A stretch of DNA of 46,894 nucleotides from positions 1 through 46,894 of the forward strand of contig CAYZIY010000013.1 in the NCBI GenBank assembly GCA_964478715.1, given 5' to 3'. This stretch comes from an uncultured Planctomycetales bacterium (GTDB lineage Bacteria; Omnitrophota; Gorgyraeia; Zapsychrales; JBDRMG01). This document shows positions 27,918 to 46,894 of the stretch, in pieces. Under the pieces are notes generated by a model that was not told the origin of the DNA, searched no databases, and worked only from the letters and a program-made list of their open reading frames with translations. Every line of letters starts with the position of its first letter. Position 1 is the stretch's first letter. A program made the position numbers and the translations under genes.

Positions 27918-27922
27918 AATAT

Positions 27923-29014: not shown

Positions 29015-29052
29015 ATCGAACCCCTTAAATGATACAATATACTCATTGATTA

Positions 29053-30564: not shown

Positions 30565-30584
30565 ATTACTCAGTTTTCTTCTTT

Positions 30585-31589
30585 TTAATCTTCCTGCCAG
30601 TAAACAATCTTTTTTTGAGATGCATCATAAATACAACGAATTTTGACACTCTCATTACTATTATAAAGTTTAGCATTGCTTTCGATAGAATAAAATTCAG
30701 ATTTCTCACTCAGCAAATCTTTTTCCATCAAACTGCGAATTTGTATTTCTTCTCTCTCGTTAAGCGGCTCCTCCTGCTGAATGAGCTCAATAATGGTTTC
30801 AGCACATGGAAAAACGATATCATCCCCCGTATAGTCAATTCCATCCGGCCCCCGGCGAATTCTTAAGATCTTATCGGCGACGTCGTGATCTAGCCCTAAG
30901 GCAATGAACACTGTTTTTTGAGCTGTATTGATATTTATTTTCCCGGAACCATAAACGGTTAAATATTTTAGCAACCGCGCAGAAACATCTTCAGTCACAC
31001 CCTTGACGAGCTTGAGTTCATCCGGAATTTCAAAAGGTTCATTTTTGGCCGGATACGGATACTCTAAATTATCATAAAAATCATCACTGAAGAACCCCAC
31101 AATCTCGCTTTCGCCTATTTCTCTCCAATCAATAATCGAATCGGCCAATCTGGTTGCCCTCACCTCATCATATTCCAGAATTAGCTTGATCAATCTTTTT
31201 AGGATATCCTTGGAAGCAACGTTGATATTAATTTTTCTTTCTTCGTCAATCAATCCATATTGTTTTGAGCCATTTTCGCTAACGGCAATACTTGCTTTGG
31301 CTCTAGGCGATGAAATATTCGAGAAATCCGATAAATTGCTATGGCGTATCATTTTACTGGGCACGGAATAGGAACCGCCATGAAAATCGTAATCCGCGTT
31401 TAAAATACCGATAGCTTTTCTGATCCCCGAAGCCGCACTTGTCTGCAAAATAGTTCTATTCTCAATCCGCTCAACAAATTTCAATTTCTGATGGATACTA
31501 AGTCCCATCGAAACAGCAAAAAGCGAAAGAACCACTAGTGTCCAAAGACTGAAAAAAAGAATTGTCCCTTTTTGATTCATCACCATCAA
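30585..31589 (-). CDS. gspK: Type II secretion minor pseudopilin GspK-like
   Basis: KGTILFFSLW N-terminus, DEERKININ, IIDWR, ELKLVKGVT and GKININTA motifs. Confidence 0.9.
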   Translation of the reverse strand: MMVMNQKGTILFFSLWTLVVLSLFAVSMGLSIHQKLKFVERIENRTILQTSAASGIRKAIGILNADYDFHGGSYSVPSKMIRHSNLSDFSNISSPRAKASIAVSENGSKQYGLIDEERKININVASKDILKRLIKLILEYDEVRATRLADSIIDWREIGESEIVGFFSDDFYDNLEYPYPAKNEPFEIPDELKLVKGVTEDVSARLLKYLTVYGSGKININTAQKTVFIALGLDHDVADKILRIRRGPDGIDYTGDDIVFPCAETIIELIQQEEPLNEREEIQIRSLMEKDLLSEKSEFYSIESNAKLYNSNESVKIRCIYDASQKKIVYWQED

Positions 31590-31597
31590 TCTTTTCT

Positions 31598-32224
31598 CTA
31601 TCCACCGACAGGAATGTCGAATATTCTCTCCATTTCTTGCTGTTTCTTTTCATCGTACGTCACGATAACTCGAAGTGTATGGGGAATGATACCTAAAGCC
31701 TCATCCTTCAGATGAAATTCCCCTTGATGATCATAAACATATTGAATCTTGAAAGACTTCACCGATGGCAACAAAATCCGCTCAGACTGAAACTTTTTTC
31801 TCAAAGCCTGCGCGTAATTAGCTTGGCGCCGAACAAGCTGATTTTTGTAAGGAAGAAACTGGTACTGAATCCGCCCGATCTGAGAAACATAGGAATCACG
31901 GGGTAAGCCCAACTTACGGTCTGCTTGGGTCGTCACAATGGCAGCAAATGAAATTCTTTCCGAAGTTCCCTCAAATGGAATTTGAGAATAATAAACCATC
32001 TTATTGAAATCCGAGCGCATCCTCTCTAAGCTAAGAACGATATCTTCTTCAAAAGTTATTTGATTACTTTTTTGCCAGATTTTCAGTCCATTATTGAATG
32101 CCTGAAAAACAGCCGAGCCGATTAAGGCAATCAATCCCGTAACCAGCATGGCTTCCATTAAAGTAAAGGCGCGAATATCGCTTCGCTTAAACAATGGGTT
32201 GAAAATTGCACGGCTTTTATTCAT
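31598..32224 (-). CDS. Minor pseudopilin, GspJ-like
   Basis: Prepilin motif RAFTLMEAMLV; located before gspK. Confidence 0.8.
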   Translation of the reverse strand: MNKSRAIFNPLFKRSDIRAFTLMEAMLVTGLIALIGSAVFQAFNNGLKIWQKSNQITFEEDIVLSLERMRSDFNKMVYYSQIPFEGTSERISFAAIVTTQADRKLGLPRDSYVSQIGRIQYQFLPYKNQLVRRQANYAQALRKKFQSERILLPSVKSFKIQYVYDHQGEFHLKDEALGIIPHTLRVIVTYDEKKQQEMERIFDIPVGG

Positions 32225-32621
32225 ACGGTATTATGATAGAATATTGCTGGAGTTTTTTCTGATACCGGCCTTCCCGCCAAGATATCTCGAGCATGAGTTC
32301 GAGAATACCTTCTTTCTGGCCAACATTTTTTATCGAGACATCATAGAGAAAATTAACTGGTGACCCGTCAATTGTTATTTGTTGAGCTTCTTGGGCAAAA
32401 GCTAAAGGAATTTCCTTAGATACCGCATAGACTTTGGCAATAGAAACAGCTCTGTTCTGGAGAAGCTGAAAAGCTTGGAGTCTATAATTAATATGACGGG
32501 CCGTATGAAGAGAGATAAAAAATGAGCGGTAAATCGATGTGATTCCGAAAGCCAAAATAGCAACAGCCACCATCAGTTCAAAGAATGTGAGGCCCTTATG
32601 ATCATCTTTTTCAAATTTCAT
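32217..32621 (-). CDS. Minor pseudopilin, GspI/PilV-like
   Basis: Prepilin motif KGLTFFELMVAVAILAFG; short length. Confidence 0.8.
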   Translation of the reverse strand: MKFEKDDHKGLTFFELMVAVAILAFGITSIYRSFFISLHTARHINYRLQAFQLLQNRAVSIAKVYAVSKEIPLAFAQEAQQITIDGSPVNFLYDVSIKNVGQKEGILELMLEISWREGRYQKKLQQYSIIIPYE

Positions 32622-32630
32622 GAAAACAGC

Positions 32631-33086
32631 TTAACTCTTTCCCCAATTCGTAATATCATCTTCGCTGGTTGTCTCGTCGCGTCCTTTGGAATAAAGATCA
32701 TAATCGGCCCTGTTTTCACCGGGTGAAACATATTGATAGGGGCGTCCCCAGGGATCGATTGGCTCACGCTCCGAATAGGGACCATTCCAATTGGAAGGAA
32801 TGGGGCTGTTTGAAGGTTTCTTGAGTAAGGCCTTCAATCCTTGGCTCGTCGTAGGGAAGAAACCATTATCCAATTCATACAGTTTTAAAGCTGTTGCGAT
32901 ATTATTCTTGATATCCGCTTCAGCAGCTGCCCGTTTTGCCTGCTCAGAACGGCCGGTCAGTCGAGGAATCACCATAGCGGCCAAAGCCCCGATGATAACA
33001 ACAACCAGCATAATTTCAATTAAAGTAAAAGCCTTATTTGGGAATCTTGAAAATGATTTTTTCTTCTTTTGAATTTCTAAGCTCAT
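32631..33086 (-). CDS. gspG: Major pseudopilin GspG
   Basis: AFTLIEIMLVVVIIG, ALKLYELDNG, NWNGPY and DPWGRPYQY; start moved to ATG 33086 after SD AGGAGG. Confidence 0.95.
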   Translation of the reverse strand: MSLEIQKKKKSFSRFPNKAFTLIEIMLVVVIIGALAAMVIPRLTGRSEQAKRAAAEADIKNNIATALKLYELDNGFFPTTSQGLKALLKKPSNSPIPSNWNGPYSEREPIDPWGRPYQYVSPGENRADYDLYSKGRDETTSEDDITNWGKS

Positions 33087-33096
33087 CACTCCTCCT

Positions 33097-33903
33097 TTAA
33101 TGCAATAAATAATTGCTCCATCTCTGCTGAAGCTCTTCAATAGACTTCGCGCCTGAAGGATAGGCGATGCGTAAAGCCTCTTCAAAATTTCTTCCGTCTC
33201 TTAATTGCCGGCATAAACGTTTAAAGGCACTGCGCCCATACTTTGTAATCAAAAACTCGACAATCGAAACGCTTTGGGCGTAAAACAAGGCAACAATATC
33301 CTGATTGTTCTGCTGGTATACATTCATCGAAAACAAAGTCTTTAAAGGAAGCTGCCTGTTCTGCTTGACAACGCTTTTCATCAATTGACGAGCCATTATT
33401 AGCCTACTTTCTTGCTGCAATTGGGCCACCCCTTCATCAAACCATACGGGAATAGGTTTGTCAAATCCGATAAAATCCCTGAGGATCAGATGGCTGATTT
33501 CATGCGGCAATAATCCCTTAATGAAATCTTCCTCCTGACGATATGTCACAATTAATCGACTTTGGAATAATTTTGAGTGACTGCTAGAATAGCCCCGAGA
33601 CCAAAGAGGCTGCCCTGTTTTTTCTGCAAACTGCTTTTGATTCTTAAAAATAATGATTTTCACACGCTCATTCCATGTCCAAAAATTGGTATAGCGCGAA
33701 TAGCCAATCTGAGACGCAATGGATCTGTAATATTTCTCGGCTTGACGAAGAATTTTTCTTGCCGTTTGGCTGTCCTCTTTATAAGAATAGAAAACGGCAA
33801 AATGATCACTTTTCTCCTGAAGCCACCCGGAAGCAAAAGCCGTTCCTTCATGATAAACATAGAGAAGCAATAAACACAATACCAGGAAAATCTTTTTGAG
33901 CAT
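33097..33903 (-). CDS. Exported gluzincin (peptidase MA-like) metallopeptidase
   Basis: Signal peptide from ATG 33903; HEISH plus WFDEGVAQ; FYAQSVSIVEFL. Confidence 0.85.
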   Translation of the reverse strand: MLKKIFLVLCLLLLYVYHEGTAFASGWLQEKSDHFAVFYSYKEDSQTARKILRQAEKYYRSIASQIGYSRYTNFWTWNERVKIIIFKNQKQFAEKTGQPLWSRGYSSSHSKLFQSRLIVTYRQEEDFIKGLLPHEISHLILRDFIGFDKPIPVWFDEGVAQLQQESRLIMARQLMKSVVKQNRQLPLKTLFSMNVYQQNNQDIVALFYAQSVSIVEFLITKYGRSAFKRLCRQLRDGRNFEEALRIAYPSGAKSIEELQQRWSNYLLH

Positions 33904-33907
33904 AGGG

Positions 33908-35119
33908 CTATCGTCCGGCCAGCAAATCCATTTGAAAAATCGGCAACAACATGGCCATGACCATGAAACCAACAATCAAGCCGATCGTCAAAATAAGAAC
34001 GGGCTCCAAAAGCGCGGTAAGCGTCTTCAGTGATTCCTCGATATCCTGCTCATAAGTTAAAGCAATATCGGCAAGTGTTTCCTCCAGCGATCCAGACTCC
34101 TCGCCAACGATAATCATATGGCTAATGAGAATCGGAACCACGGAAATATTTTTCAGACTTTCCCCAAACGAAGAGCCGGATTCGAGATTCTCCATACCTT
34201 TACGTATGTTTGCTCTAATCACATTGTTATGAATAGTAGCGGAAGCTATCGATATCGCTTTCAATAAAGGCGCACCGCTTCTAAGAAGAAGTTCGAGAGT
34301 CTTAGAGAACCGGGATATTTCTGTCTTTTTGATTAATTGTCCGAAAAGCGGGACAGTAAGCAAAAACCGATGGAACAATAATCTTCCGGAATTTGTCTTG
34401 GCCCATTTGATCAAAAAGAGGACAGCAAAGAAGATCCCTAAACTGATGACAATCCAATAATCGCGTATTCCTTGACTGAGAGTAATCATGATACGGGTTG
34501 CCAAAGGAAGCTGTTGATCTATCTGTGAGAAAAGCGGCATCACCCGTGGCATTACATTAGTTAAAATAAATATTACTGTAGCAATTCCCACAAAAAGCAT
34601 CAAAAGAGGATAAGCTAAAGCGACGCGCACTTTTGAGTAAATCTCGTCCTGGGATTTGAGATGGGCAGATATCCTCTGAATCATCTCGGATAATTGCCCT
34701 CCCTCCTCACCGGCCTGAACCATAGCAATGTAAAGCGTTGAAAAGACTCGGGGATATTGACTGAGACAATCGGAAAGATTATAACCATCTTTGATCTTAG
34801 CGCTAACATCAGCCAATATTCTCTTCAAATCATTATTTTGAGTTTGTTGCGATAAAAGATGAAAGGCTTTTAAGATGGGGACACCGGTCTTAAGAAGATT
34901 GGCCAGCTGGCGACTCATCAGATAAGTTTCTTTCAAAGACACTCTCTCTGACCTAAAAATCCTTCGAGATCTTGTTTTGAACTGCTCCTCCTGTACCGAT
35001 AAAGGCGTTAGCCCCATATGATTAATAATATCAATTGCCTCTTCTTTGTTTTGAGCTTCCAAGCGACCTTCTTTGATTTCTGTTGAACCTTTTTTAGCTT
35101 TGTATAAAAAAGACGGCAT
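33908..35119 (-). CDS. gspF: Type II secretion inner-membrane platform protein GspF/PilC
   Basis: RQLANLLKTGVPI, AGEEGGQL, ALAYP, GEESGSL and LLEP motifs. Confidence 0.95.
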   Translation of the reverse strand: MPSFLYKAKKGSTEIKEGRLEAQNKEEAIDIINHMGLTPLSVQEEQFKTRSRRIFRSERVSLKETYLMSRQLANLLKTGVPILKAFHLLSQQTQNNDLKRILADVSAKIKDGYNLSDCLSQYPRVFSTLYIAMVQAGEEGGQLSEMIQRISAHLKSQDEIYSKVRVALAYPLLMLFVGIATVIFILTNVMPRVMPLFSQIDQQLPLATRIMITLSQGIRDYWIVISLGIFFAVLFLIKWAKTNSGRLLFHRFLLTVPLFGQLIKKTEISRFSKTLELLLRSGAPLLKAISIASATIHNNVIRANIRKGMENLESGSSFGESLKNISVVPILISHMIIVGEESGSLEETLADIALTYEQDIEESLKTLTALLEPVLILTIGLIVGFMVMAMLLPIFQMDLLAGR

Positions 35120-35124
35120 ATTGT

Positions 35125-37350
35125 TTATCCTCGAGTATCTTTTTTCGAATTAACAAAATTTTCTATCTTTACCCGATCCGCGCTTGAAATATCTAAATAA
35201 TAAACCGCGATATTGAGTGTATCACTCAGCTCATCTTCTTCTACGCGACAAATTTTTGCCAGACAGCCGATGCCATCTTTCTTTTCATCCAGCTGTATCC
35301 GTAAATCAACAATTGAGTCCACTTCAATCGAATGACTAGATGAAAAAAGGAGACCACCGGCACTGATGTTTTTGGTGATTGATGAATGCTCGTAATTATC
35401 TCCTTTATACGTCGTCGTTTCAACATCGCTCTCTTGGGGTTGAAATATTTTATAACGGATTTTGACCTTCTCGTTGATCCGCGGATAAATTCGTTTCTCG
35501 TGATCCAATTTAGCCGATTGCATCACGTTCCTTCTTATTGTACGGAATTGATAAACTGTTTTATTATCAAGGCGATTTTCCTTTTTTGCCTTATTTTCAA
35601 CCTGGTCATCTGGCGGAATCCCCTCGGTGGGATATTGTTCTTTACTGGTTACATTGATCACCTCGGCCGGTGTCGTCAGCCCCTGAATAACCTTCCGCCA
35701 GCCGTCTTGCCGCAAAGTCTTCATGCCGCTTTTTATGGCAATCTTTTTGATATATTCTATGCGAGGCCTTTCTAAAATAGCCGAGCGAATTTCTTCATTC
35801 ATCACCATCATCTCGTGAATGGCTGTCCGTCCAAAATAACCGGTTTGGTTGCATTGATCGCAACCTTTTCCGTGATAAAATTTTATACTATTATCGTCAA
35901 TTTTAAGAGCCTCAGCTATTTCGTCTTTTATCTCTAAAAAAGGTGCTATCGTTTCTTCTTTACAGTGGGGGCAAATCATACGCACCAAACGTTGAGCAAC
36001 AAAAGCCTCAACGCTAGAGGCGACCAGATAGGGCTCAAGCCCCATATCGATCAAACGGGTAATCCCGCTGGTGGCATCATTGGTGTGCAATGTCGAAAAA
36101 ACTAAATGTCCCGTTAAGGCGGTACGAATCGCGATTTCGGCGGTCTCCAAATCACGCACCTCGCCGACCATAATAATATCAGGATCATGCCGTAGAATAC
36201 TTCTTAAACCACGCGCAAAATTGAGATCTACTTTAGGATTCACCTGAATTTGAGTAATCCCTTCCATCTCATACTCTACCGGATCTTCAATGGTGATGAT
36301 TTTACGCTCGAGCGTATTGATCTCATTGAGGCAAGCATAAAGAGTCGTTGTCTTTCCGCTGCCAGTAGGGCCTGTCAAAAAAACAATCCCATGAGGCTTG
36401 GCGATAATGTTTCTGAATTCCTGAACATTCTCCTTATTGAGCCCCAGTTTTTGTAAACTAAAAAGTCTTACTTTGGTCGGCAAGATACGAATCACCATAC
36501 TTTCCCCTGAAGGCGTAGGGATAGTTGAAACTCTCAAATCCAAATTCTGCTCCTTGGTTTTGACCACAGCACTTCCGTCTTGCGGCACACGTTTCTCGAC
36601 AATACTCAAACCCGCCATTATTTTGATCCTTGAGAGAATAGGAAAAATGAAATGTCGGATTTGGACGGGTAAATTCGCGTCCATGAGGACTCCGTCGATC
36701 CGATAACGGAAGCGAACTTTATCACGGTAAGGTTCGATATGAATATCGGTGGCTCTTTTTTTATACGCTTCCAAGATAATCTGGTTAACCAGATTAATGA
36801 TGGAAGCATCTTCGCTTGCCTTCTCCAAATCTTCAATGCTCTGCCTTTGATTGGCCTCAGCGATTTTAACACGTTCGGGATCCTTGCTGAGAATGCGGTC
36901 CACCGTATCGGCTGCCAGACCGTAATACTTCTTAAAGACATCGAGAATTTGAGATTCCTTGGCCAAAACCAATTTGGGTTGCAAACCTAAGTAGACTCGA
37001 ATTTCATCTTGCATCTTAATATCTAAAGGAACAGCCGTCGCAATCTTTATTTCCTTTCCCTCTATTGCCAGCGGCATAAATTTATAATACCAAGCAAATT
37101 TTACGGGAATCTTCTTTATGACTTTTTGATCGATAATGAATTTGTTCAAATCGACTATTTCTAAGTTTAATTTCCGTGAGAGAACCTTAATGATCTCGTT
37201 TTCACTGACAAATCCCTGACGGACAAGATAGCTGGTTAGGGTTTCTCTGGCGCTTTGAGCTTTGGCTTGAGCCCGAGCGATATCTTCCATCGAGATAAGT
37301 TTATTTTCAATAAGAATATTGGCTAATGTTTTTTCAGATGAATTGGTCAT
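35125..37350 (-). CDS. gspE: GspE/PilB assembly ATPase with a C-terminal PilZ domain
   Basis: GPTGSGKT, TIEDPVE, LRHDPDIIMVGE, STLHTN, CPHC/CDQC; C-terminal KRIYPR and NISAGG. Confidence 0.95.
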   Translation of the reverse strand: MTNSSEKTLANILIENKLISMEDIARAQAKAQSARETLTSYLVRQGFVSENEIIKVLSRKLNLEIVDLNKFIIDQKVIKKIPVKFAWYYKFMPLAIEGKEIKIATAVPLDIKMQDEIRVYLGLQPKLVLAKESQILDVFKKYYGLAADTVDRILSKDPERVKIAEANQRQSIEDLEKASEDASIINLVNQIILEAYKKRATDIHIEPYRDKVRFRYRIDGVLMDANLPVQIRHFIFPILSRIKIMAGLSIVEKRVPQDGSAVVKTKEQNLDLRVSTIPTPSGESMVIRILPTKVRLFSLQKLGLNKENVQEFRNIIAKPHGIVFLTGPTGSGKTTTLYACLNEINTLERKIITIEDPVEYEMEGITQIQVNPKVDLNFARGLRSILRHDPDIIMVGEVRDLETAEIAIRTALTGHLVFSTLHTNDATSGITRLIDMGLEPYLVASSVEAFVAQRLVRMICPHCKEETIAPFLEIKDEIAEALKIDDNSIKFYHGKGCDQCNQTGYFGRTAIHEMMVMNEEIRSAILERPRIEYIKKIAIKSGMKTLRQDGWRKVIQGLTTPAEVINVTSKEQYPTEGIPPDDQVENKAKKENRLDNKTVYQFRTIRRNVMQSAKLDHEKRIYPRINEKVKIRYKIFQPQESDVETTTYKGDNYEHSSITKNISAGGLLFSSSHSIEVDSIVDLRIQLDEKKDGIGCLAKICRVEEDELSDTLNIAVYYLDISSADRVKIENFVNSKKDTRG

Positions 37351-37365
37351 AATGAAGATGAAAAA

Positions 37366-39742
<2,377 letters not shown>

Positions 39743-39757
39743 ATTCGAATAATGAAA

Positions 39758-40501
39758 TTATGCGCCTTCAATCTTATCTTTCTTTCTAGTGGAGGCCTCG
39801 ATGATCAGATTTTTGATGCTCCCGTCCAGAGCTAAACTGCCGAATTTTAACATGATTCCGGCGACCATTTGCTTATCCGTTGTAGCGCTAACTGTAATTG
39901 ATCTACCCAGCTTTTTTTCAATAATATCGAAAATCCTTTGATTGATCGATTCGTCAAGAGATCCTGCGGTCACAATCTCAACGGTTTTAACATCTGAAGA
40001 AATTTGTTTCATATCCACATTTTCCAGATCCTTGATAAATTCCTCCCATAATCTTTCCTCCAAAATACCGCGCGCTTCTTCGCTTAATATCTCGCATAAG
40101 ATTTCGGAGGCAAAGGTAACCGTCTTAATCTCAATCTCTTTTTCAATATCTTTGCGGATTTGATCCTTGGTTCTTTGGGCTTTGTCGATAATCTCCTCAC
40201 CCTCGTTCCGGGCCTTTTGAATCATCTGCGCACGTTCTTCTTTAGCTTTTTCATTAGCCTCATCGATCATCTTTTTGGCTAACTCTTCCGCTTCTTTGCG
40301 GCGCTTCTCCAGCTCTTCATTGGCTTCTTTAATTTTGCGATCCAGTTCGGCCTGTTTGGCACGCGCTTCTTCAGTCTCCTTATTCAAACGTTGAACCGCT
40401 CCTTCGGTACTTGAAAAAAAGACTTGCTTCATGACAAAAATAATCACTCCAAAAACAACTGTCTGTAAAACAAAAATTTTGATAAGAAGCATCCAGTTCA
40501 T
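39758..40501 (-). CDS. Fo subunit b fused to the delta/OSCP C-terminal domain
   Basis: N-terminal TM helix, long charged coiled coil, then VEIVTAGSL...MVAGIMLKFGSLALDGSIK. Confidence 0.85.
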   Translation of the reverse strand: MNWMLLIKIFVLQTVVFGVIIFVMKQVFFSSTEGAVQRLNKETEEARAKQAELDRKIKEANEELEKRRKEAEELAKKMIDEANEKAKEERAQMIQKARNEGEEIIDKAQRTKDQIRKDIEKEIEIKTVTFASEILCEILSEEARGILEERLWEEFIKDLENVDMKQISSDVKTVEIVTAGSLDESINQRIFDIIEKKLGRSITVSATTDKQMVAGIMLKFGSLALDGSIKNLIIEASTRKKDKIEGA

Positions 40502-40532
40502 CGTATCCCTTTCTGATTTTTTCTTTCATTCA

Positions 40533-40775
40533 TTATTCGGCATACGTCTCAAGCATATGATAAAAAATAAGCAAAAGACCAAAGCTGATCACTTCGACAA
40601 AAACTAATTTGAGAAAAATCCCAGTTTGAATGGCCGGAGTCTTGCTCGGATAATAAGATAATTTCTTTAGCATCTTGTATCCTAAAATAGCCGCCGCTGT
40701 GCAGGGAATTGCAATCATGATAAAGATAATCGTGATCAGGGTCAGTCCGGTTTGTAGAGTTTCGCTTTGCTCCAT
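40533..40775 (-). CDS. Second, divergent c-subunit-like hairpin protein
   Basis: Aligns without gaps to the neighbouring c subunit (P..A.LGY..K.L...PS...I..G...L.FVE.IS). Confidence 0.7.
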   Translation of the reverse strand: MEQSETLQTGLTLITIIFIMIAIPCTAAAILGYKMLKKLSYYPSKTPAIQTGIFLKLVFVEVISFGLLLIFYHMLETYAE

Positions 40776-40781
40776 TTGAGT

Positions 40782-41003
40782 CTACCTTCCAAAAAGCTGA
40801 AAGATAATGAGAATGGCAACGATGGAAATCGCCTCAACGAAAATCAAAAGAACAATCATTCCCATAAAAATCTTGGACGCGGCCGAAGGATTCCTTCCCA
40901 AGGCTTTTATAACCGAATAGCCCAAAACCGCAATGACCATCGATGGCCCCATAACGGCAATAAACATGATCGCAATAATAATAAAGGTTTCGGCTAATCT
41001 CAT
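40782..41003 (-). CDS. atpE: Fo subunit c (divergent)
   Basis: 73-aa two-TM hairpin, GRNP loop, conserved Glu in FVEAI. Confidence 0.88.
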   Translation of the reverse strand: MRLAETFIIIAIMFIAVMGPSMVIAVLGYSVIKALGRNPSAASKIFMGMIVLLIFVEAISIVAILIIFQLFGR

Positions 41004-41009
41004 AATTTG

Positions 41010-41342
41010 CTAAACTTCCCCTTGCTCATCATCTTCTTTACCAAAAACCATATCTTCTTCTTTCCCCTCTTTTTCTTTCTTTTCTCTTTCTTCCTGCTCG
41101 ATCAGAACGATACAATCATTGGCAAAAAATCTTAAGATACCGACCTTGACAGGAACAGCATGCCGCCAGTTAATAATAATCTTGCTGTTCAACTGCAAAA
41201 TACCGATCACCGGATAGTGATAGGGCAAAATCTCATATTCTCCCTCATCGCCGGTAATAAACAAAGAATGAACCTCGTTTTCATAAACAAGACTGTCGGG
41301 CGTCATAATAGTGCATTTGAATGTTCCTTTATAGCGCGCCAT
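41010..41342 (-). CDS. atpC: F1 epsilon subunit (beta-sandwich domain only, with an acidic tail)
   Basis: IMTPDSLVYENEV, GDEGEYEILPYHYPVIGIL motifs. Confidence 0.85.
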   Translation of the reverse strand: MARYKGTFKCTIMTPDSLVYENEVHSLFITGDEGEYEILPYHYPVIGILQLNSKIIINWRHAVPVKVGILRFFANDCIVLIEQEEREKKEKEGKEEDMVFGKEDDEQGEV

Positions 41343-41353
41343 TGTTACAGACC

Positions 41354-42904
41354 TCAGGTCTTGACATCCTCTTTCTTACTCGTGGCTTGATCAAGAGCAT
41401 CCTGCCCCACCATATCATCTTCTGATTCATCCTCTTCTTCTTTGGGCCGCTTGGCCTGAACATCTTTGAGATACTGAGTGCAAAGATCTTCCATCTCCTT
41501 GGCAATATCATCGTCCAATTTTTTCTTCTCTCTCAAATTTTTAATTAATTCAGGATTTTTCTGATTGGCAAAATCAAGAATCTCCAGCTGAAATTTCTTA
41601 ACTTCGTCTCCGCTCATCTCCAGAAGAATCTTTTTGTTGTAGGCAAAAAGAGTCAAGGCAAGAACATCCAAAGAAACCGGAGAATCTTTATCCTGACGAA
41701 TGATTTCAGTTAGAATCTCACCGATTTTCATTTGCTGCTGCTGGCCTTCGCTTTGTCCGGATGTTTTCAGTCGGGAGACTCGAAGAAGCTCGCGGTATTG
41801 GATATAGTCCAGTCGCAAAGAGCCCGATAACTTTTTGACGATAGGCCACTGCACCTTGCTTCCCACGCGTGAAACCGAAAGGCCCAAGTCTACAGCCGGT
41901 TTTTGCCCTTCACCGAAAAGGGGAGTGCTTAAATAGATTTGCCCATCGGTCATGGAAACAAGATTCGAAGGAATGTATCCGGTTAAATCCCCCTCTAAAA
42001 GCTCAACGATCGGGAAAAACGTGATGGAGCCACCCCCGCGCTCTTTATCCATAAAAGCCGCACGCTCAATCATTTTCGAGTGCAGATAAAAAATGTCTCC
42101 CGGATACGAGTCGCGACCCGGAGGACGCGCCAGCAATAGGGAAATCTCCCTGTAACACCAGGCATGCTTGGTGAAATCGTCAAAGCCGATAAAGACATGT
42201 TTTCCCTGGTTCATCAAATGCTCAGCAATGGAACAGGAAACGTAGGGAGCCAGATACTGCTGTCCAGGAGGAGCAGAAGCGGGTGCCGAAACAATCATCG
42301 AATATTCAAAACAACCGTTATCCTGAAAAAGCTGAACAACCTTGGCTAAAGCGCTTCGGGCTTTCCCGATACAGCAATAGATGCAGTAAACATCCGTGTT
42401 TTTTTGATTCAGAATCGTATCGGTCACAATGGTAGTTTTTCCGGTCATCTTATCACCAAGAATCAACTCGCGCTGACCGAGCCCGACGGGAATCATGGTA
42501 TCCAAAACCTTAATGCCCGTTTCCAGAGTTTTGCATAAGGGCTCGCGTGCCAAGATGGGAGGAGCATCAATAAAAACCGGAGCCATTTTGTCCCATTCCA
42601 AACGACCCAAACCATCCAAGGTCTCGCCTAAAGGATTGATGATGCGTCCGATAAGTTTATTACCCACAGGAACATAAAAAGGTTCCAGCGATGCAACCGC
42701 CTTATCGCCTGTTTTAATATTCTCGGTTTCTTTAACAATAAGAACCTGGGCTTCCTTTTCATCAAATCCAATGATCTGCCCTAAAGTTCCGTATCCAAAT
42801 TTAATCAACTGGCCGCTTAAACAATGCTTGAATCCCGTCACAATGACAATACAACCCCGGATACAGCGAACACGCCCAATTTCTGTATATCGTAAATCAC
42901 CCAT
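41354..42904 (-). CDS. atpA: Divergent F1-type ATPase alpha subunit
   Basis: GQRELILGDKMTGKT, RPPGRDSYPGDIFYLHS, TDGQIYL and SVSRVG motifs; SD GGAGG. Confidence 0.95.
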   Translation of the reverse strand: MGDLRYTEIGRVRCIRGCIVIVTGFKHCLSGQLIKFGYGTLGQIIGFDEKEAQVLIVKETENIKTGDKAVASLEPFYVPVGNKLIGRIINPLGETLDGLGRLEWDKMAPVFIDAPPILAREPLCKTLETGIKVLDTMIPVGLGQRELILGDKMTGKTTIVTDTILNQKNTDVYCIYCCIGKARSALAKVVQLFQDNGCFEYSMIVSAPASAPPGQQYLAPYVSCSIAEHLMNQGKHVFIGFDDFTKHAWCYREISLLLARPPGRDSYPGDIFYLHSKMIERAAFMDKERGGGSITFFPIVELLEGDLTGYIPSNLVSMTDGQIYLSTPLFGEGQKPAVDLGLSVSRVGSKVQWPIVKKLSGSLRLDYIQYRELLRVSRLKTSGQSEGQQQQMKIGEILTEIIRQDKDSPVSLDVLALTLFAYNKKILLEMSGDEVKKFQLEILDFANQKNPELIKNLREKKKLDDDIAKEMEDLCTQYLKDVQAKRPKEEEDESEDDMVGQDALDQATSKKEDVKT

Positions 42905-42996: not shown

Positions 42997-44388
42997 CTAA
43001 GACTCTTCCTTCCCCTCGCCTTCGGGATTTTCGGCCGGTTTGATTTCTTCTATGGTTCCCCCTGTACTTATGGCTATCTCCTCCCCCATAACGCGGGCTT
43101 TTTTCCACCATGTGAAAAAGTGAACAATCGTAATAACAGCTACAAAAATAAGAATGCCCCAGATAATACGCCAAGTATGTGTTAAGGTCGGCTTCTTACC
43201 GAATATTGCTTCGGAAAGAGAGGCGATACCGCGTAAAGCCTTTAATTTTTGCAGAATATTTTTTACTTTGCTTTTTTCCAACTCTTCTAACTTCTTAGCC
43301 TTGACGCGAGCGAGCATTAGCTCGATCTTCTCAATCTCCAGACTAATCTCTTCAAATCGATGCCGATTAATGCGAAAGGCGCCGATATATTTTCGCATAT
43401 TAGCTTTAGTTTCCTGCGATTCTCTAATAGCATTGAGTAGGCTAAAAATTTTATTCCCGATAAACTGAGCTCCCGCTTCGTATTCGGAACCCTTGATTTC
43501 TTCGAGAGCGCGTTCAGTTCGCTCAGCCATCGAATCGACCTTGTCAAGAGAAATGCTCCAAATATCTTTCATCCGAATGGTATATTTTCTCGTCTCACCA
43601 GGTTGAAATTCTTCTTCCTTAAGAAGATAGGATTGCTGTCGATCTTCATCCCATCGAACATCAAAACCCTGGCTATCCAAAATATGCTCAGACCGTATTT
43701 CTTTTGGAAGGTAATGTTTCTGCGTGATCATTCTGGTCTCTTTTTGAGAAGGATTTTTAACTTCAATAATAAAATTCACAGATTCCTGTGTCACCTCCCT
43801 GATACGCTCGGAGGTAAAGTATTCAAAAGAAAAAGCATTTTTCCGAATTTGATCGATATCAGCCAAATAAGCCCGGTATTCTTCAATCCGACGATTGATA
43901 TCCTCAGAATAACCCTGCTGCTGACTCAAAACATAATCAAGTTTGTTCATCATCTTCTCGCCAATCATTTGGGCGGACTCAAAATACTCGGTACCTTCCA
44001 GCTGTCGGATATTCTCTTCAATCTGTCCCCTGATAATATCAATTTCCTCCTGAGGAATTCTCCAGACATCGCGCACTTCCACTTTGATCTTTTTGGATTC
44101 TTTGGGCTTTAAGGTAACGGTCCCTTTGAGAAAATATCGCGACTGGTCGATATCGTAATCCAGCGAAAGAGGCCCGGCATTGACAATATCTTTCGGATCC
44201 AATTCTCGGGGAAGATAATATTTCACAGATGTTTCTTTTTCTTGGGTCTCGCTGGGATTAACCGCCACAAAATTAATAAAGATATTCTGGGCATAACATT
44301 TCGATGAAGAAATAGCAAATAATACATACAGTGCTATTGATAAAAAAATGGATTTCTTGATAAAATGAAATAAAATTCCTTGATTCAT
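42997..44388 (-). CDS. Exported protein with a C-terminal membrane anchor, built of two ~170-aa repeats
   Basis: Signal peptide; NPS..YLP.E...D(V/I)W.I...G(T/S)EY..AQ.IG.K occurs twice; TM helix TWRIIWGILIFVAVITIVHFFTWW. Confidence 0.8.
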   Translation of the reverse strand: MNQGILFHFIKKSIFLSIALYVLFAISSSKCYAQNIFINFVAVNPSETQEKETSVKYYLPRELDPKDIVNAGPLSLDYDIDQSRYFLKGTVTLKPKESKKIKVEVRDVWRIPQEEIDIIRGQIEENIRQLEGTEYFESAQMIGEKMMNKLDYVLSQQQGYSEDINRRIEEYRAYLADIDQIRKNAFSFEYFTSERIREVTQESVNFIIEVKNPSQKETRMITQKHYLPKEIRSEHILDSQGFDVRWDEDRQQSYLLKEEEFQPGETRKYTIRMKDIWSISLDKVDSMAERTERALEEIKGSEYEAGAQFIGNKIFSLLNAIRESQETKANMRKYIGAFRINRHRFEEISLEIEKIELMLARVKAKKLEELEKSKVKNILQKLKALRGIASLSEAIFGKKPTLTHTWRIIWGILIFVAVITIVHFFTWWKKARVMGEEIAISTGGTIEEIKPAENPEGEGKEES

Positions 44389-44421: not shown

Positions 44422-46894
44422 TTATTCTCCGCTTTCAAAATAAGTCTTGATCACAACGTCCTGGGTTTCTACCGACTCTTTAATGGCATTGATCTTGATA
44501 TTGATCTCATTTAGCTTTTCATCCAACATTTGAGCTGTCACTGTTGTGCCCTTTTCGATCTCTTCCACCCCTAGCCCGGCCTCTTCACCTGCTTCACCCG
44601 TTTTTCCCTGGGCGCCTACCACACCGCCGTCGATCAAACCAATCGCTCCCGCACTTTCATTAACAAAATTGGCTAAAGAATTGAGAATCTCCGTAGCTAT
44701 ACCGTTAGACTCGACTTGGCTTTCCGAAATAGCCTCAGTGGCTATCTTGAGATTTTCCAAATATTCTTGCATTTTCTTTATTTTCTCATAAACAACGGGA
44801 GTCTTGCCTTTCGCACCAAGTTCCGTCCGTATGTCCTGAGCTTCCTGGAGAGCGGCACCGGCATTGCTCTTTGCCGTATCGACGTTTTCTTCTATATTAG
44901 GAAGCTCTGAGAGAGTACCAAATATCGTTGCCGGATCTGTTTCCCCGTCGCTGCCGATGAGCGTCTCGATTTCTCCCACGCTTGTGTCAATTGTATTGAG
45001 TGCGCCAAAAATACTTGTTGTTTCTGTATCCGCCGTATCTCCAATATTTGTTGAAATAGAATCAACAGTTGTCAGAATGGTATCAACATTGGCAGATAAT
45101 GTCGCACTTCCGCCAATGGAATTGACAGCCGTTAAGACCTCAGCCACTTTTCCGAAAAGGGTGTTTTGACTAGAAGTGTCACTACTATCACCAACGGCAG
45201 TTGTCAAGCTATTGACCGCTGTTAATATATCATTTACATTACTTACCAGCGTTCGGGCATTATCCGCCAAATAAGCAATATCATTCCAATTGACATTGGC
45301 CCGACTCATGGAAGCGATATCACTCCAGTTAACACCCGCTGTGCTGGAAATGCCCATATCATTCCAATTAATTCCTGTACCAGACATATAGGAGATATCA
45401 GCCCAATTTATTCCCGCATCAGTCATGACATTAATATCACCCCAGTTAATGCCTGTATCGGTCATCATATCCAAATCCGACCAATTGATACCCGCATCGG
45501 AAAGAATATCAATATCCGCCCAGTTGATACCCGTATCAGTCAAGACATCCAGATCCGACCAGTTAATGCCTGTTTTTGTCATTACACCGATATCGCTCCA
45601 ATTAATTCCTGCATCACTCAAGTCGTTAAGGTTATCCCAATTGACTCCGGCTTCTGTCAGCTCATTCAATTCAATCCAGTTGACCCCCATCTCGGACATG
45701 ACGCGCAAATCATCCCAGTTAATTCCGGCATCAGAGAAGATTTGGATATCATCCCAGTTAATACCAGCATCGGACAGTTTGCCAATATCGCCCCAATTAA
45801 TCCCTGTTTTTGACATCGCATCTATATCCGTCCAATTAATACCTAAGTCCGATAACTCATAAATACTGGTCCAGTTTATTCCTATATCGCTCATCACATC
45901 CAGATCATTCCAATTAATCCCTGCATCAGAGAGGACATCGATATCGGCCCAATTCAAACCTGTATCACTTAGAACATCTAAATCACTCCAATTGATGCCA
46001 CTGCCTGAGAGAATATCTATATCCATCCAGTTAATACCTAAATCACTCATTACCTCTATGTCTAGCCAATTAATGCCAGAGCCTGACATCTCGCCAACAT
46101 CGCTCCAGTTGATACCTGCATCACTCATTGTATCTATATCCAACCAATTGATTCCTGCGTTGTGCATAACCGAAAGGTCATTCCAGTTGATACCTGCATC
46201 AGTAAGAATATCGATATCCGCCCAGTTGATTCCCTTGTCACTCATCACATCTAGATCGCTCCAATTGATACCCGTTTTAGATAATAACTCCACATCAGAC
46301 CAGTTGATCCCCGTGTCGCTGAGGACATCAAAATCGCTCCAGTTAATCCCGGCATCACTGAGCATATCGATATCATTCCAGTTGATACCGGTGTCGCTCA
46401 AGACATCCAAATCTTCCCAGTTAATCCCAGCTTTAGACAGGATATCAATATCGGCCCAGTTGATACCGGCGTCACTTAGAACATCGAGATCCGCAAAATT
46501 GATGCCAGTGTCACTTAAAACGTCGATATCCGCCCAGTTGATGCCCGCATCAGACAAGATATCCATATCGACCCAGTTGATGCCGGTGTCAGATAAAACA
46601 TCGATATCCAACCAGTTAATGCCGGCATCCGTTAGCACATCTAAGTCACTAAAGTTAATGCCAGCATCACTCAAAATGTCGATATCCGCCCAGTTGATGC
46701 CGGTATCACTCATCACATCCAGATCGCTGAAGTTGATACCGATATCCGAGAGGACATCCACATCAGCCCAGTTGATACCCGCATCACTCATCACATCGAG
46801 ATCACTAAAGTTGATTCCGGTGTCAGATAAAACATCAATATCCGCCCAGTTGATGCCGGTATCGCTCATCACATCCAGATCCGCAAAATTGATG
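44422..46894 (-). CDS. Large acidic tandem-repeat protein, 5' end outside the window
   Basis: Frame stays open to the window edge (INFADLDVMSDTG...); about 41 13-aa repeats followed by a ~285-aa helical C-terminal region. Confidence 0.9.
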   Translation of the reverse strand, partial: INFADLDVMSDTGINWADIDVLSDTGINFSDLDVMSDAGINWADVDVLSDIGINFSDLDVMSDTGINWADIDILSDAGINFSDLDVLTDAGINWLDIDVLSDTGINWVDMDILSDAGINWADIDVLSDTGINFADLDVLSDAGINWADIDILSKAGINWEDLDVLSDTGINWNDIDMLSDAGINWSDFDVLSDTGINWSDVELLSKTGINWSDLDVMSDKGINWADIDILTDAGINWNDLSVMHNAGINWLDIDTMSDAGINWSDVGEMSGSGINWLDIEVMSDLGINWMDIDILSGSGINWSDLDVLSDTGLNWADIDVLSDAGINWNDLDVMSDIGINWTSIYELSDLGINWTDIDAMSKTGINWGDIGKLSDAGINWDDIQIFSDAGINWDDLRVMSEMGVNWIELNELTEAGVNWDNLNDLSDAGINWSDIGVMTKTGINWSDLDVLTDTGINWADIDILSDAGINWSDLDMMTDTGINWGDINVMTDAGINWADISYMSGTGINWNDMGISSTAGVNWSDIASMSRANVNWNDIAYLADNARTLVSNVNDILTAVNSLTTAVGDSSDTSSQNTLFGKVAEVLTAVNSIGGSATLSANVDTILTTVDSISTNIGDTADTETTSIFGALNTIDTSVGEIETLIGSDGETDPATIFGTLSELPNIEENVDTAKSNAGAALQEAQDIRTELGAKGKTPVVYEKIKKMQEYLENLKIATEAISESQVESNGIATEILNSLANFVNESAGAIGLIDGGVVGAQGKTGEAGEEAGLGVEEIEKGTTVTAQMLDEKLNEINIKINAIKESVETQDVVIKTYFESGE
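45280..46894 (-). repeat. 39-bp / 13-aa coding tandem repeat, consensus SD(A/T)GIN(W/F)xD(I/L)D(V/I)(L/M)
   Basis: GINW/GINF recurs every 13 residues with extensive synonymous variation. Confidence 0.95.

What the first reader, a model, noticed from the sequence alone, without database searches (positions are those of the whole stretch)
45280..46894. Unfamiliar 13-aa acidic GINW repeat, about 41 copies and running off the window
Seen: a strict 13-residue period with near-invariant G(I/V)N(W/F)xD, high Asp content and few basic residues. Synonymous sites vary strongly, so conservation is at protein level. W and F alternate in the 5'-most copies and the repeats degrade towards the C-terminus. 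I do not recognise the family. Inference: a solenoid or Ca2+-stiffened stalk of a very large surface protein, and the likely cargo or filament of the downstream machinery.
Basis: partly seen in the sequence, partly recalled or inferred. Interest (0 to 1): 0.75.

Follow-up and report, generated by a model that had tools for sequence, protein, structure and literature searches.

The report
Giant 13-residue-repeat fibre protein, Omnitrophota
The 13-amino-acid repeat is real and belongs to no described family; it forms the long stalk of a secreted giant protein that sits inside an unusual secretion/pilus-plus-ATPase gene cluster of the tiny Omnitrophota bacteria, most likely as their tether to other cells.

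Summary
On the minus strand, 44422-46893 encodes 41 in-register 13-aa units (plus a partial first unit), (L/M)(S/T)D(A/T)GIN(W/F)xD(I/L)DV, followed by a 278-aa helical C-terminal domain. The window is a whole contig. The 5' half of the gene (signal peptide, Ig-like/beta-sandwich head, about 37 more units) lies at the end of contig C24, and synteny with two complete orthologues supports the join.

The organism is an Omnitrophota MAG. Orthologues range from 900 to 10,972 aa (about 20 to 770 units, one unbroken run of 503). They always lie between a secretin/FGE-like gene block and a bitopic membrane protein (p463), an F1-like ATPase with no a subunit, and T2SS/T4P genes. That locus is already published (Seymour 2023); I found no description of the repeat protein.

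Two AlphaFold runs (low confidence) and helix-capping logic suggest each unit is a 9-residue helix plus an xG(I/V)N turn, not a beta-solenoid. Acidity is not conserved among orthologues, which weakens the Ca2+ idea. The Pfam Ntox33 hit is a repeat-summing artefact.

Best reading: a length-variable surface fibre or tether that is part of this machine.

The parts
45259..46893 (-). Array of 13-aa GINW units (aa 1-545 of the fragment): 41 complete units plus a partial first unit. Runs off the contig end.
44425..45258 (-). C-terminal non-repeat domain (278 aa). Segmented long helices carry a recurring 'IG-T-x-D-T...T(L/V)FGK' motif. Predicted up-down helical bundle. The conserved tail is ...VVKTYFESGE. 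Stop codon at 44422-44424.
   Evidence: alignment of 17 orthologues; AF2 pLDDT 73-85 over residues 123-340; generic 4-helix-bundle matches, Z 16; weak profile hit to the DC-SIGNR neck, E 1.6e-4
42997..44388 (-). p463: signal peptide, two tandem ~170-aa modules, C-terminal coiled segment, one TM helix and a short acidic tail. It is the constant downstream neighbour and the candidate membrane anchor.
   Evidence: no Pfam, NCBIfam or PDB family
41354..42904 (-). F1-like ATPase alpha subunit
   Evidence: Pfam ATP-synt_ab; NCBIfam atpA 499 bits, above its cut-off
41010..41342 (-). epsilon-like subunit
40782..41003 (-). c subunit (73 aa)
   Evidence: PF00137 29.9 bits, cut-off 24
40533..40775 (-). 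80-aa two-TM hairpin protein, c-like by eye, no family
39758..40501 (-). b/delta fusion-like stalk subunit
38891..39742 (-). gamma subunit
37366..38865 (-). F1-like ATPase beta subunit
35125..37350 (-). GspE/PilB-type ATPase with an N-terminal MshEN domain and a C-terminal PilZ domain
27009..35119 (-). GspF, MA-peptidase, GspG major pseudopilin, minor pseudopilins (including J- and K-like), PilM/N fusion, PilO-like protein, TPR protein

Best explanation
The GINW array is the stalk of a Sec-exported, length-hypervariable fibre protein. This protein is a fixed component of the Omnitrophota 'symbiotic F-type ATPase / type-4-pilus (T2SS-like)' locus.

SHOWN. The gene is split by assembly between contig C24 and the window. 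C24 holds the signal peptide, an Ig-like domain, two beta-sandwich modules and about 37 units. The window holds 41 units plus the helical C-terminal domain. Orthologues keep the plan head - array - C-domain, while the array varies from about 20 to about 770 units with almost no indels. The gene always sits between secretin/TPR/two FGE-fold proteins and p463/F1-like ATPase/GspE-F-G...

PREDICTED, low confidence. Each 13-aa unit is a 9-residue alpha-helix (W8 to D3 of the next unit) joined by a 4-residue x-G-[IV]-N turn. In this reading N7 and D10 form an N-cap/capping box, I6 and I/L11 a hydrophobic staple, and L1...G5-I6 a Schellman-type C-cap. That would explain why exactly G5, I/V6, N7, W8, D10 and the hydrophobic positions 1 and 11 are the conserved ones.

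INFERRED. The chain of helices forms a thin rod that holds the variable N-terminal head (Ig/beta-sandwich; LamG in a sister genus) away from the cell. The conserved C-terminal helical bundle is the base and docks on the membrane-anchored p463. The fibre leaves through the locus's secretin with the help of the pseudopilus, and serves as an adhesive tether to host or prey cells. The a-subunit-less F1-like ATPase may move or tension it.
For: Anatomy and split gene. The four genes upstream of the complete giants in G014 and G039 map, in order, to C24 14.6-20.8 kb, directly before the C24 fragment.

Synteny: 17 of 17 fetched orthologous loci show C-domain, then p463, alpha, epsilon and b/delta, and further genes as far as each contig reaches. 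Complete orthologues of 8091 aa (565 motif hits) and 10,972 aa (770 hits) share the same neighbours on both sides. By my reading, 32 of 32 listed matches that reach the C-terminal end have p463 within 300 nt downstream on the same strand, including genomes of other classes.

Co-occurrence in 301 sampled genomes of the phylum: both 57, repeat protein only 11, p463 only 7, neither 226.

Strict unit length: 200 of 201 spacings equal 13 in G018, and G014 has an unbroken run of 503 units.

Secretion context on C24: ExeA-like AAA, GspC-like protein, secretin, TPR, two FGE-sulfatase-fold proteins.

Helix-per-unit: two AF2 runs on different alignments give the same pattern, helices 9 residues long with 4-residue loops. 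The only PDB sequence hit is the helix-hairpin-helix N-terminus of DMC1, where two G-I-x hairpins are also 13 residues apart (E 0.04).

Head variability: LamG in P0003, the G001 orthologue; Ig-like hint for P0007.

The same repeat serves as an internal module in other Omnitrophota extracellular-type proteins, combined with GLUG/M26_N plus Ig/CARDB/InlB-B domains.

Locus precedent: Seymour et al. 2023, PMC10066038 (passages read).
Against: No experiment and no expression data. Export route, anchoring and adhesion are all inferred.

The AF2 repeat models are weak. Mean pLDDT is 36-48 over the repeats in job 1. In job 2 it is 63.9 with pTM 0.25, and the other four models score 39-44. Only secondary structure is usable, and the tertiary packing is unknown.

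My hydrophobic periodicity analysis was ambiguous, with peak power at 2.6 residues, between the helix and strand values.

No recognised anchor motif was found, and the complex test of C-domain with p463 could not be run.

Eleven genomes have the repeat without a full-length p463 and 7 the reverse. Fragmented MAGs or other architectures may explain some of these.

Known T2SS substrates are far smaller than a megadalton fibre (recalled).
Confidence: 0.55

Rival explanations
1. The array itself is the working surface, not a passive stalk. One invariant Trp, Asn and Asp per 13 residues would form a multivalent ladder that binds a polymer on the target cell: cell-wall or S-layer glycan, or, in the basic K/R-rich variants, a polyanion such as nucleic acid or teichoic-type polymers. 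Avidity would then scale with unit number.
For: W8, N7 and D10 are the most conserved positions. Net charge changes between orthologues, from strongly acidic to neutral or basic (G014; P0004), as expected if the exposed face is adapted to different ligands. There is motif-level similarity to a DNA-binding helix-hairpin-helix. The same module occurs in other extracellular-type Omnitrophota proteins.
Against: In the predicted helix W8, N7 and D10 are capping or core positions, so structural roles alone explain them. Profile-profile comparison with HHH_3 domains of relatives gave probability 0.1%. No carbohydrate-binding family matches. The extreme acidity here argues against nucleic-acid binding for this protein.
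Confidence: 0.2
2. One reading: a Ca2+-stiffened beta-solenoid or beta-roll stalk, analogous to RTX repeats or Ca2+-rigidified adhesin extenders, in which the Asp residues ligate Ca2+.
For: This copy has 18% Asp and almost no basic residues. By eye, D12-x-x-x-D3-x-x-I6-N7-x-x-D10 resembles an EF-hand or dockerin loop followed by its exit helix (consensus recalled, not from a call). The Asp-box family BNR_6 gives a summed 28 bits.
Against: D3 and D12 are not conserved. The pooled units have D 24% / K 22% at position 3 and N 26% / D 25% / G 21% at position 12. Orthologue G014 is charge-neutral. No RTX, dockerin, EF-hand or TSP3 family hit was found. Both AF2 runs predict helices and no strands. 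Ca2+ binding by this acidic variant in a helical fold is not excluded.
Confidence: 0.1
3. A released T2SS cargo or a cell-envelope coat: a matrix or S-layer-like protein, or a periplasmic ruler. On this view its link to the machine is only that the machine exports it. It would not be a tether attached to the apparatus.
For: T2SS substrates are often encoded beside their system (recalled). The protein has a signal peptide and no recognisable anchor. Omnitrophota giant proteins have been proposed to form coats (Seymour 2023 passage on V. archaeovorus).
Against: The fixed position inside the operon, the conserved C-terminal domain and the constant TM-anchored neighbour p463 across classes fit a built-in part better than one cargo among many.
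Confidence: 0.13
4. A polymorphic toxin carrying Ntox33 domains, as the Pfam whole-protein score would suggest.
For: PF15533 scores 77.4 bits against a cut-off of 28.4 for the window fragment, and 60.2 bits for the C24 fragment.
Against: Zero individual stretches pass. The score is summed over repeats that match only profile positions 4-38 of 65. Ntox33 is defined by [DN]xHxxK and DxxxD, an H-K-D triad, in an alpha+beta C-terminal toxin domain (PMC3482391 and PMC9424270, passages). The array has 1 His in 545 residues and no conserved His or Lys position. It is internal rather than C-terminal, and no immunity-type neighbour is present.
Confidence: 0.01

Closest known systems
Omnitrophota 'symbiotic' type-2/3-like F-type ATPase / type-4a-pilus locus (Seymour et al. 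2023, PMC10066038; passages read)
   Same: Same phylum and same arrangement: an F1-like ATPase next to T4P/T2SS-type genes. That paper already proposes a role in attachment to, or motility on, host cells.
   Different: The passages I read do not mention a repeat protein, and the word 'repeat' occurs 0 times in the main text. Supplements were not examined. New here: the giant GINW gene and p463 are constant members lying between the secretin block and the ATPase. The locus has a c subunit but no a subunit, and none was found in the genome, which is 94.6% complete.
Fibrillar adhesins and giant Ca2+-dependent RTX adhesins such as LapA, MpIBP and SiiE (recalled, not from a call)
   Same: The plan is alike: signal or anchor region, a long stalk of many tandem units whose number varies between strains, and a distal binding domain. 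These are huge surface proteins of bacteria.
   Different: Those stalks are built from ~90-110-aa Ig-like domains and exported by T1SS. Here the unit is 13 aa and predicted helical, and the context is a secretin/pseudopilus system plus an F1-like ATPase. Ca2+ dependence is not supported across orthologues.
Mycoplasma mobile gliding machinery: internal F1-like ATPase chains plus giant surface 'leg' Gli349 (PMC8406192, PMC11864180, PMC6935860; search listing and abstract starts only)
   Same: A non-respiratory F1-like ATPase is genetically or functionally coupled to very large surface proteins used on host surfaces.
   Different: There is no sequence relation between the GINW protein and Gli proteins in any search here. 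The alpha and beta subunits score below the cut-offs of the MMOB1660/1670 and MSC_0618/0619 models and above those of atpA/atpD. This organism is a diderm with a secretin and pseudopilins.
Helix-hairpin-helix motifs (Rad51/DMC1 N-terminal domain; tandem (HhH)2 arrays as in topoisomerase V, the latter recalled)
   Same: Short helices joined by G-[IV]-x hairpins. In DMC1 two such hairpins are 13 residues apart and align with two GINW units, 11 of 24 identical. AF2 gives helix-turn-helix-turn.
   Different: E is only 0.04. No Pfam HHH family hits, and hhalign against HHH_3 gives 0.1%. The protein is extracellular and strongly acidic here, so DNA binding is unlikely for this copy.
[quoted passage not shown] 2023, bioRxiv 10.1101/2023.11.21.568195, passages; 2026 preprint 10.64898/2026.06.07.730766, passages)
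   Same: Giant, repeat-rich, probably extracellular proteins of the same phylum, encoded next to T2SS/T4P-like genes and proposed to act in prey adhesion.
   Different: Those are over 30,000 aa and are classified by Pfam domains (HEAT, dockerin, TSP3, enzymes). None of the passages describes a 13-aa unit or the ATPase-linked gene. GINW proteins are 0.9-11 kaa and carry no Pfam domain in the array.

Membership tests
Pfam PF15533 Ntox33 | A discrete domain match that passes on its own | tested here: not met
   77.4 bits for the whole protein but 0 stretches pass. Only profile positions 4-38 of 65 are matched, repeatedly.
Pfam PF15533 Ntox33 | [DN]xHxxK and DxxxD motifs / H-K-D triad (PMC3482391, PMC9424270) | tested here: not met
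   1 His in 545 residues. No unit position has His, and Lys occurs 4 times of 41 at position 3 and once at position 4.
Pfam PF15533 Ntox33 | C-terminal toxin module of a polymorphic toxin with an adjacent immunity gene | tested here: not met
   The matches lie in an internal array. The C-terminus is a helical bundle, and the next gene is the conserved membrane protein p463.
Helix-hairpin-helix (HhH) superfamily | Significant sequence or profile similarity to an HhH family | tested here: inconclusive
   DMC1 N-terminus E 0.04. NCBIfam recomb_DMC1 32 bits against a cut-off of 448. hhalign against HHH_3 of relatives gives probability 0.1%. No HHH family in Pfam at E up to 10.
Helix-hairpin-helix (HhH) superfamily | Two short helices joined by a tight G-hydrophobic-G/N hairpin | tested here: inconclusive
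   AF2 gives 9-residue helices joined by x-G-[IV]-N loops in both runs, but pLDDT is 36-66. Fold searches with the model found nothing: Foldseek 0 matches at E up to 10, VIA best Z 2.1.
Helix-hairpin-helix (HhH) superfamily | Non-specific DNA binding | not testable with these tools
   -
RTX / beta-roll Ca2+-binding repeats | Nonapeptide GGxGxDxUx units | tested here: not met
   The period is 13 with motif G-[IV]-N-W-x-D. No RTX-type Pfam hit.
RTX / beta-roll Ca2+-binding repeats | Conserved acidic Ca2+ ligands | tested here: not met
   Only D10 is conserved. D3 and D12 are replaced by K/T/N/G in orthologues.
Asp-box / BNR repeat | S-x-D-x-G-x-T-W beta-hairpin | tested here: inconclusive
   BNR_6 gives a summed 28.1 bits (cut-off 27) with 0 stretches passing. 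AF2 predicts no strands.
Omnitrophota symbiotic F-ATPase/T4aP locus (Seymour 2023) | F1-like alpha/beta genes within 10 kb of T4P/T2SS genes, in an Omnitrophota genome | tested here: met
   Beta ends at 37366 and GspE starts at 37350. Relatives are titled Omnitrophota/Omnitrophica in 12 of 20 loci, Ca. Aceula in 2 and 'uncultured Planctomycetales' in 6.
Omnitrophota symbiotic F-ATPase/T4aP locus (Seymour 2023) | Alpha subunit groups with type-2/3 (Mycoplasma-like) ATPases in a tree | not tested
   No tree was built. NCBIfam places alpha above the atpA cut-off and below the MMOB1660 and MSC_0619 cut-offs.
Fibrillar adhesin (stalk + adhesive domain + anchor; definition recalled) | Export signal and a stalk of tandem units | tested here: met
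   The N-terminus has a K-rich n-region, a 19-residue hydrophobic core and ...AVLA/QY (read by eye; no predictor was run). At least 78 tandem units.
Fibrillar adhesin (stalk + adhesive domain + anchor; definition recalled) | Recognised adhesive domain | tested here: inconclusive
   No Pfam hit in this copy's 440-aa head. LamG in orthologue P0003. Ig-like structural hint for P0007 residues 64-180.
Fibrillar adhesin (stalk + adhesive domain + anchor; definition recalled) | Cell-surface anchor | not testable with these tools
   No known anchor motif was found. Docking on p463 is a hypothesis, and the complex predictor was unavailable.

The most novel reading that the evidence does not exclude
The locus encodes a previously unrecognised kind of cell-surface machine. 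A rotary F1-like ATPase with a c-ring but no proton-channel a subunit is coupled, through the bitopic protein p463 and a secretin/pseudopilus conduit, to a micrometre-scale alpha-helical fibre. The fibre is built from up to 770 identical-length 13-residue helix-turn units, a repeat fold with no solved relative. The ATPase reels, rotates or tensions this fibre so that an ultra-small bacterium can catch and hold, or crawl on, a much larger host cell.
Probability: 0.12. Interest if true: 0.9.

Novelty: new variant of a known kind. Interest (0 to 1): 0.62.

Why it matters
Omnitrophota are uncultured, ultra-small, apparently host-dependent bacteria. How they attach to partners is unknown. Their odd F-type-ATPase/pilus locus has been pointed out as a likely key to that, but without any candidate surface component. 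This work adds a concrete, conserved and very large candidate, together with its probable membrane partner p463, and places both inside the operon.

It also defines a new short repeat family: strict 13-residue units, hundreds in a row without indels, no Pfam model and no structural relative found. The family is currently liable to be mislabelled as 'Ntox33 toxin' by summed HMM scores.

Because the array breaks short-read assemblies, these genes are systematically truncated in MAGs. Knowing the unit and the flanking domains lets them be recognised and joined.

A recombinant stretch of 10-20 units is a small, tractable target for structure determination of a possibly new helical repeat architecture.

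Tried and rejected
- Ntox33: rejected as a repeat-summing artefact.
- HhH membership: hhalign of a 4-unit profile (A3) against 21 HHH_3 domains from relatives gave probability 0.1%. The DMC1 lead stays at motif level.
- Sequence searches of the PDB: the p463 profile gave one chance hit (E 0.99) and the 440-aa head gave none.
- Fold searches: C-domain model, Foldseek nothing at E<=1e-3, and VIA only generic helical bundles. Repeat model, Foldseek 0 matches and VIA best Z 2.1. With pLDDT about 64 this shows neither novelty nor the opposite.
- PHROGs: only three unnamed families with summed scores.
- ESM Atlas: the window protein is not held. The homologue P0007 has a poor Atlas model and no feature hits.
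- Periodicity of hydrophobicity and entropy: ambiguous.
- Promoter and terminator scan of 27-46.9 kb: not above shuffles.
- Paper search for 'GINW': only surnames and noise.
- Searches for a prior description (and passages) found none. Supplements were not read, and bioRxiv supplements are closed.
- Sequencing runs: no RNA holder listed.
- Logan contigs of two runs from one study: no piece bridges past the contig end. Repeat unitigs have word depth 96-436 against about 6 in the unique part, which is compatible with many collapsed near-identical units but is not a copy number.
- Complex prediction (C-domain with p463) was not available, and earlier findings were not open.
- C-domain search among longer proteins found only the G001 orthologue P0003; the tool calls this weak evidence.
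Full report
WHAT IS THERE. The feature lies on the minus strand. ORF 44422..46893 (823 codons) is open at the window's last base. The window is the whole of contig C13 of a 2.1-Mb, 43-contig genome. Read by register alone, aa 1-545 consist of a partial unit plus 41 complete 13-residue units, (L/M)(S/T)D(A/T)GIN(W/F)xD(I/L)DV. Position counts are N7 41/41, G5 40/41, W8 37/41 (F in the other 4), D10 38/41 and I/V6 40/41. There are 108 acidic and 8 basic residues, no Cys and no Pro. Units are 58% identical in protein and 62% in DNA, and 56% of codons for identical residues differ synonymously. Tandem Repeats Finder sees only 64-76% matching 39/78/117/156-nt periods. The motif G[IV]N[WF] occurs 39 times, 37 at exact 13-residue spacing, against a mean of 0.08 and a maximum of 2 in 2000 shuffles, and 0 in the other five frames.

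THE REST OF THE GENE. A six-frame scan of all 43 contigs finds dense motifs in only one other place, the 3' end of contig C24 (33 hits). There an ORF starts with a typical Sec signal (K-rich n-region, hydrophobic core...AVLA/QY, read by eye). It continues with about 440 aa of non-repeat sequence, namely a Gly/Ser/Tyr-rich stretch, an Ig-like region and two duplicated beta-sandwich-like modules. It then runs through about 37 GINW units off the contig end. Two orthologues are complete inside long contigs: G014, 8091 aa with 565 motif hits, and G039, 10,972 aa with 770. The four genes upstream of those giants map in the same order to C24 14.6-20.8 kb, directly before the C24 fragment. The genes downstream of them match those downstream of the window fragment. 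C24 and C13 are therefore two halves of one gene broken by assembly in the most homogeneous units. The gene has at least 78 units and 1731 aa. Logan unitigs from the outermost repeat units have word depths of 96-436 against about 6 in the unique part, so more near-identical units may be collapsed. That figure is not a copy number.

WHO AND WHERE. Relatives found through the neighbour protein are MAGs titled Candidatus Omnitrophota/Omnitrophica (12 of 20), Ca. Aceula (2) or 'uncultured Planctomycetales' (6). Named cluster members are all Omnitrophota. A phmmer search of 331 aa of repeats against 1.84 billion representatives returned only 346 hits at E<=1e-3, 102 at <=1e-10 and 23 at <=1e-30. 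Of 8 hits I inspected, 3 carry tandem GINW arrays, 1 has scattered motifs, and 4 are unrelated repeats such as FN3 'GSNW'. Within the order, 32 of 41 genomes match. Across the phylum, 68 of 301 sampled genomes match.

THE LOCUS. Pfam and NCBIfam give the following order. On C24: ExeA-like AAA_22, GspC-like protein, secretin, TPR protein, and two secreted FGE-sulfatase-fold paralogues. Then comes the GINW gene. In the window: p463, then F1-like alpha, epsilon, c (73 aa, PF00137), an 80-aa c-like hairpin, b/delta, gamma and beta. These are followed by GspE/PilB with MshEN and PilZ domains, GspF, an MA-peptidase, GspG, minor pseudopilins including J- and K-like, PilM/N, PilO and a TPR protein. 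No a subunit is in the locus, and none was found in the genome (PF00119, 0 matches, genome 94.6% complete). A second ATP-synt_ab pair lies on C7. In 17 of 17 orthologous loci fetched, the GINW C-domain is followed at once by p463, alpha, epsilon and b/delta, and by the remaining genes as far as each contig reaches. By my reading of the match tables, 32 of 32 listed matches that reach the C-terminal end have p463 within 300 nt on the same strand, including genomes of other classes. Presence or absence in 301 genomes: both 57, GINW only 11, full-length p463 only 7, neither 226. Related genomes are not independent, so I give counts and not a P value. The ATPase/T4aP pairing itself is published for Omnitrophota, with the Mycoplasma gliding analogy (Seymour 2023, PMC10066038, passages). 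In the passages and searches I ran I found no mention of this repeat protein. Supplements were not read.

WHAT THE UNIT IS. No library explains it. Pfam gives PF15533 Ntox33 at 77 bits, but no single stretch passes and only profile positions 4-38 of 65 are hit, again and again. Ntox33 is defined by [DN]xHxxK/DxxxD, an H-K-D triad, and the array has 1 His and no conserved Lys. This is an artefact. A 4-unit profile against PDB sequences finds only the helix-hairpin-helix N-terminus of DMC1 (E 0.04), where two G-I-x hairpins are likewise 13 residues apart. NCBIfam's recomb_DMC1 gives the same weak signal. However, hhalign against HHH_3 domains from relatives is negative (0.1%), and no Pfam HHH, dockerin, EF-hand, RTX or TSP3 family appears even at E<=10. 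Two AlphaFold2 runs were made on different alignments. The first used 17 orthologous C-terminal 410-aa segments. The second used 142 in-register 10-unit segments from 7 proteins of 6 genomes (4 segments from the window's own protein). Both give the same secondary structure, a 9-residue helix from W8 to position 3 of the next unit and a 4-residue loop x-G-[IV]-N. Confidence is low: pLDDT 36-48 over the repeats in the first run; 63.9 with pTM 0.25 in the second, with the other four models at 39-44. Only the secondary structure is worth using. The pattern agrees with textbook helix-capping rules (recalled): N7...D10 as a capping box, I6/I-L11 as a hydrophobic staple, L1...G5-I6 as a Schellman C-cap. 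Those rules would account for exactly the conserved positions. Fold searches with the repeat model found nothing (Foldseek 0 matches; VIA best Z 2.1). My own periodicity test was ambiguous. The strictness of the period is striking: 200 of 201 spacings in G018 and 503 consecutive units without an indel in G014.

Ca2+ AND CHARGE. Acidity is not a family trait. D+E / K+R in units is 20.5/1.1% here, 13.7/0.2% in G018, 11.9/1.8% in G039 and 7.2/6.7% in G014. P0004 is K/R-rich. In the pooled units, position 3 is D 24% / K 22% and position 12 is N 26% / D 25% / G 21% (N7 and W8 are fixed there by the way units were picked). A general Ca2+-ligand role for the Asp residues is therefore unlikely, although this acidic copy may still bind cations.

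THE ENDS. The C-terminal 278 aa are conserved (mean column identity 56% over the last 410 aa in 17 orthologues). They are predicted with moderate confidence as long helices packed as an up-down bundle (pLDDT 73-85). The structural matches are generic helical bundles (Z 16). There is a weak profile hit to the segmented coiled-coil neck of DC-SIGNR (E 1.6e-4). A 'T(L/V)FGK' helix-loop motif flanks both ends of the array. The head varies: the sister-genus orthologue P0003 (1292 aa, about 38 units) adds a LamG domain. The same repeat is also an internal module of other Omnitrophota proteins that carry GLUG/M26_N, Ig, CARDB and InlB-B domains. p463 has a signal peptide, two tandem ~170-aa modules, a coiled segment and a C-terminal TM helix. 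Its modules recur inside other giant ORFs of the phylum.

READING. The most likely reading (0.55) is a surface fibre that is a built-in part of this machine. It would have a variable binding head, a helical rod whose length is set by unit number, and a conserved helical base next to the membrane-anchored p463. It would be exported by Sec and the locus's secretin and pseudopilus, and used as a tether to host or prey cells. Shown: anatomy, split gene, synteny, co-occurrence, lineage restriction. Predicted: the helix-turn unit. Inferred: export route, anchoring, function, any role of the ATPase.

Rivals are: the array as a multivalent ligand-binding ladder (0.2); a released cargo or coat (0.13); a Ca2+ beta-solenoid (0.1); an Ntox33 toxin (0.01). 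The complex test of C-domain with p463 could not be run. If each unit adds roughly 0.5-1 nm, as is typical for alpha-solenoids (recalled, and an inference), 78 units would span tens of nanometres and 770 units several hundred. That is comparable with or longer than these 'nanobacteria'.

NOVELTY. The kind of thing, a repeat stalk of a giant bacterial surface protein inside a locus already flagged in Omnitrophota, is known. The 13-residue unit, its strictness, its predicted helix-turn architecture without a structural relative, and its fixed place with p463 between secretin and F1-like ATPase are new as far as my searches reach.

Noticed in passing
window 37366-42904 (-): The F1-like ATPase operon has alpha, epsilon, c, a c-like hairpin, b/delta, gamma and beta, but no a subunit. 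PF00119 finds none in the whole genome, which is 94.6% complete. A second ATP-synt_ab pair (588 and 480 aa open frames, probably V/A-type) lies on contig C7, and a single 458-aa one on C9.
   Followed up: partly
L063:9392-12788 (= G000:C24 17391-20787), + strand: Two paralogous secreted proteins (590 and 543 aa) with an FGE-sulfatase (SUMF1-type) domain lie directly upstream of the giant gene. They are conserved in that place in G014 and G039. They have the same fold family as GldJ/GldK of Bacteroidota gliding/T9SS (recalled). No GldJ/K model hit appeared in NCBIfam.
   Followed up: partly
window 24445-27012 (+): An STT3/PglB-type oligosaccharyltransferase (855 aa; PF02516) lies convergent to the end of the cluster. 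A homologue sits in the same place in G014 and in 7 of the 8 fetched orthologous loci that extend 500 nt or more beyond the TPR gene. The array holds 11 N-W-[ST] sequons on the invariant Asn in 41 units, so the fibre may be N-glycosylated.
   Followed up: partly
window 42997-44388 (-), and matches: p463 consists of two tandem ~170-aa modules (beta-rich part plus helical part). Single modules recur in small 240-310-aa proteins and inside other giant open frames of the phylum, with open frames up to 12,861 aa (G220), 11,907 aa (G118) and 9,221 aa (G217).
   Followed up: no
window 35125-37350 (-): The GspE/PilB ATPase carries both an N-terminal MshEN domain and a C-terminal PilZ domain. That gives two putative c-di-GMP-binding modules on one secretion ATPase.
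   Followed up: no
L003:91-2814 (G000:C24 20864-23587) and alignment A5: The residues just after the predicted signal-peptide cleavage site are conserved in all 11 N-terminal sequences aligned: (Q/A)(Y/F)(T/S)GGS..G, with G41 invariant and G42, S43 and G46 nearly so. This may be a sorting or processing motif. An irregular 19-residue element (YM.G.G.NW....NW.NL..L...) is also conserved at one place inside the array in G000, P0003, P0004, P0005, P0007, P0008 and G039.
   Followed up: partly
window 45992-46894 (+), 45425-45862 (+): The opposite strand of the array is also open for long stretches (301 and 145 aa; up to 1278 aa in G014) and reads as a Ser/Leu/Pro-rich 13-aa repeat (..SQLIPAS..). 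I take this as a by-product of the repeat's codon pattern and not as a gene.
   Followed up: no
window 12078-14153 (-): An unusual domain combination in one 691-aa protein: a cNMP-binding domain plus a patatin-like phospholipase.
   Followed up: no
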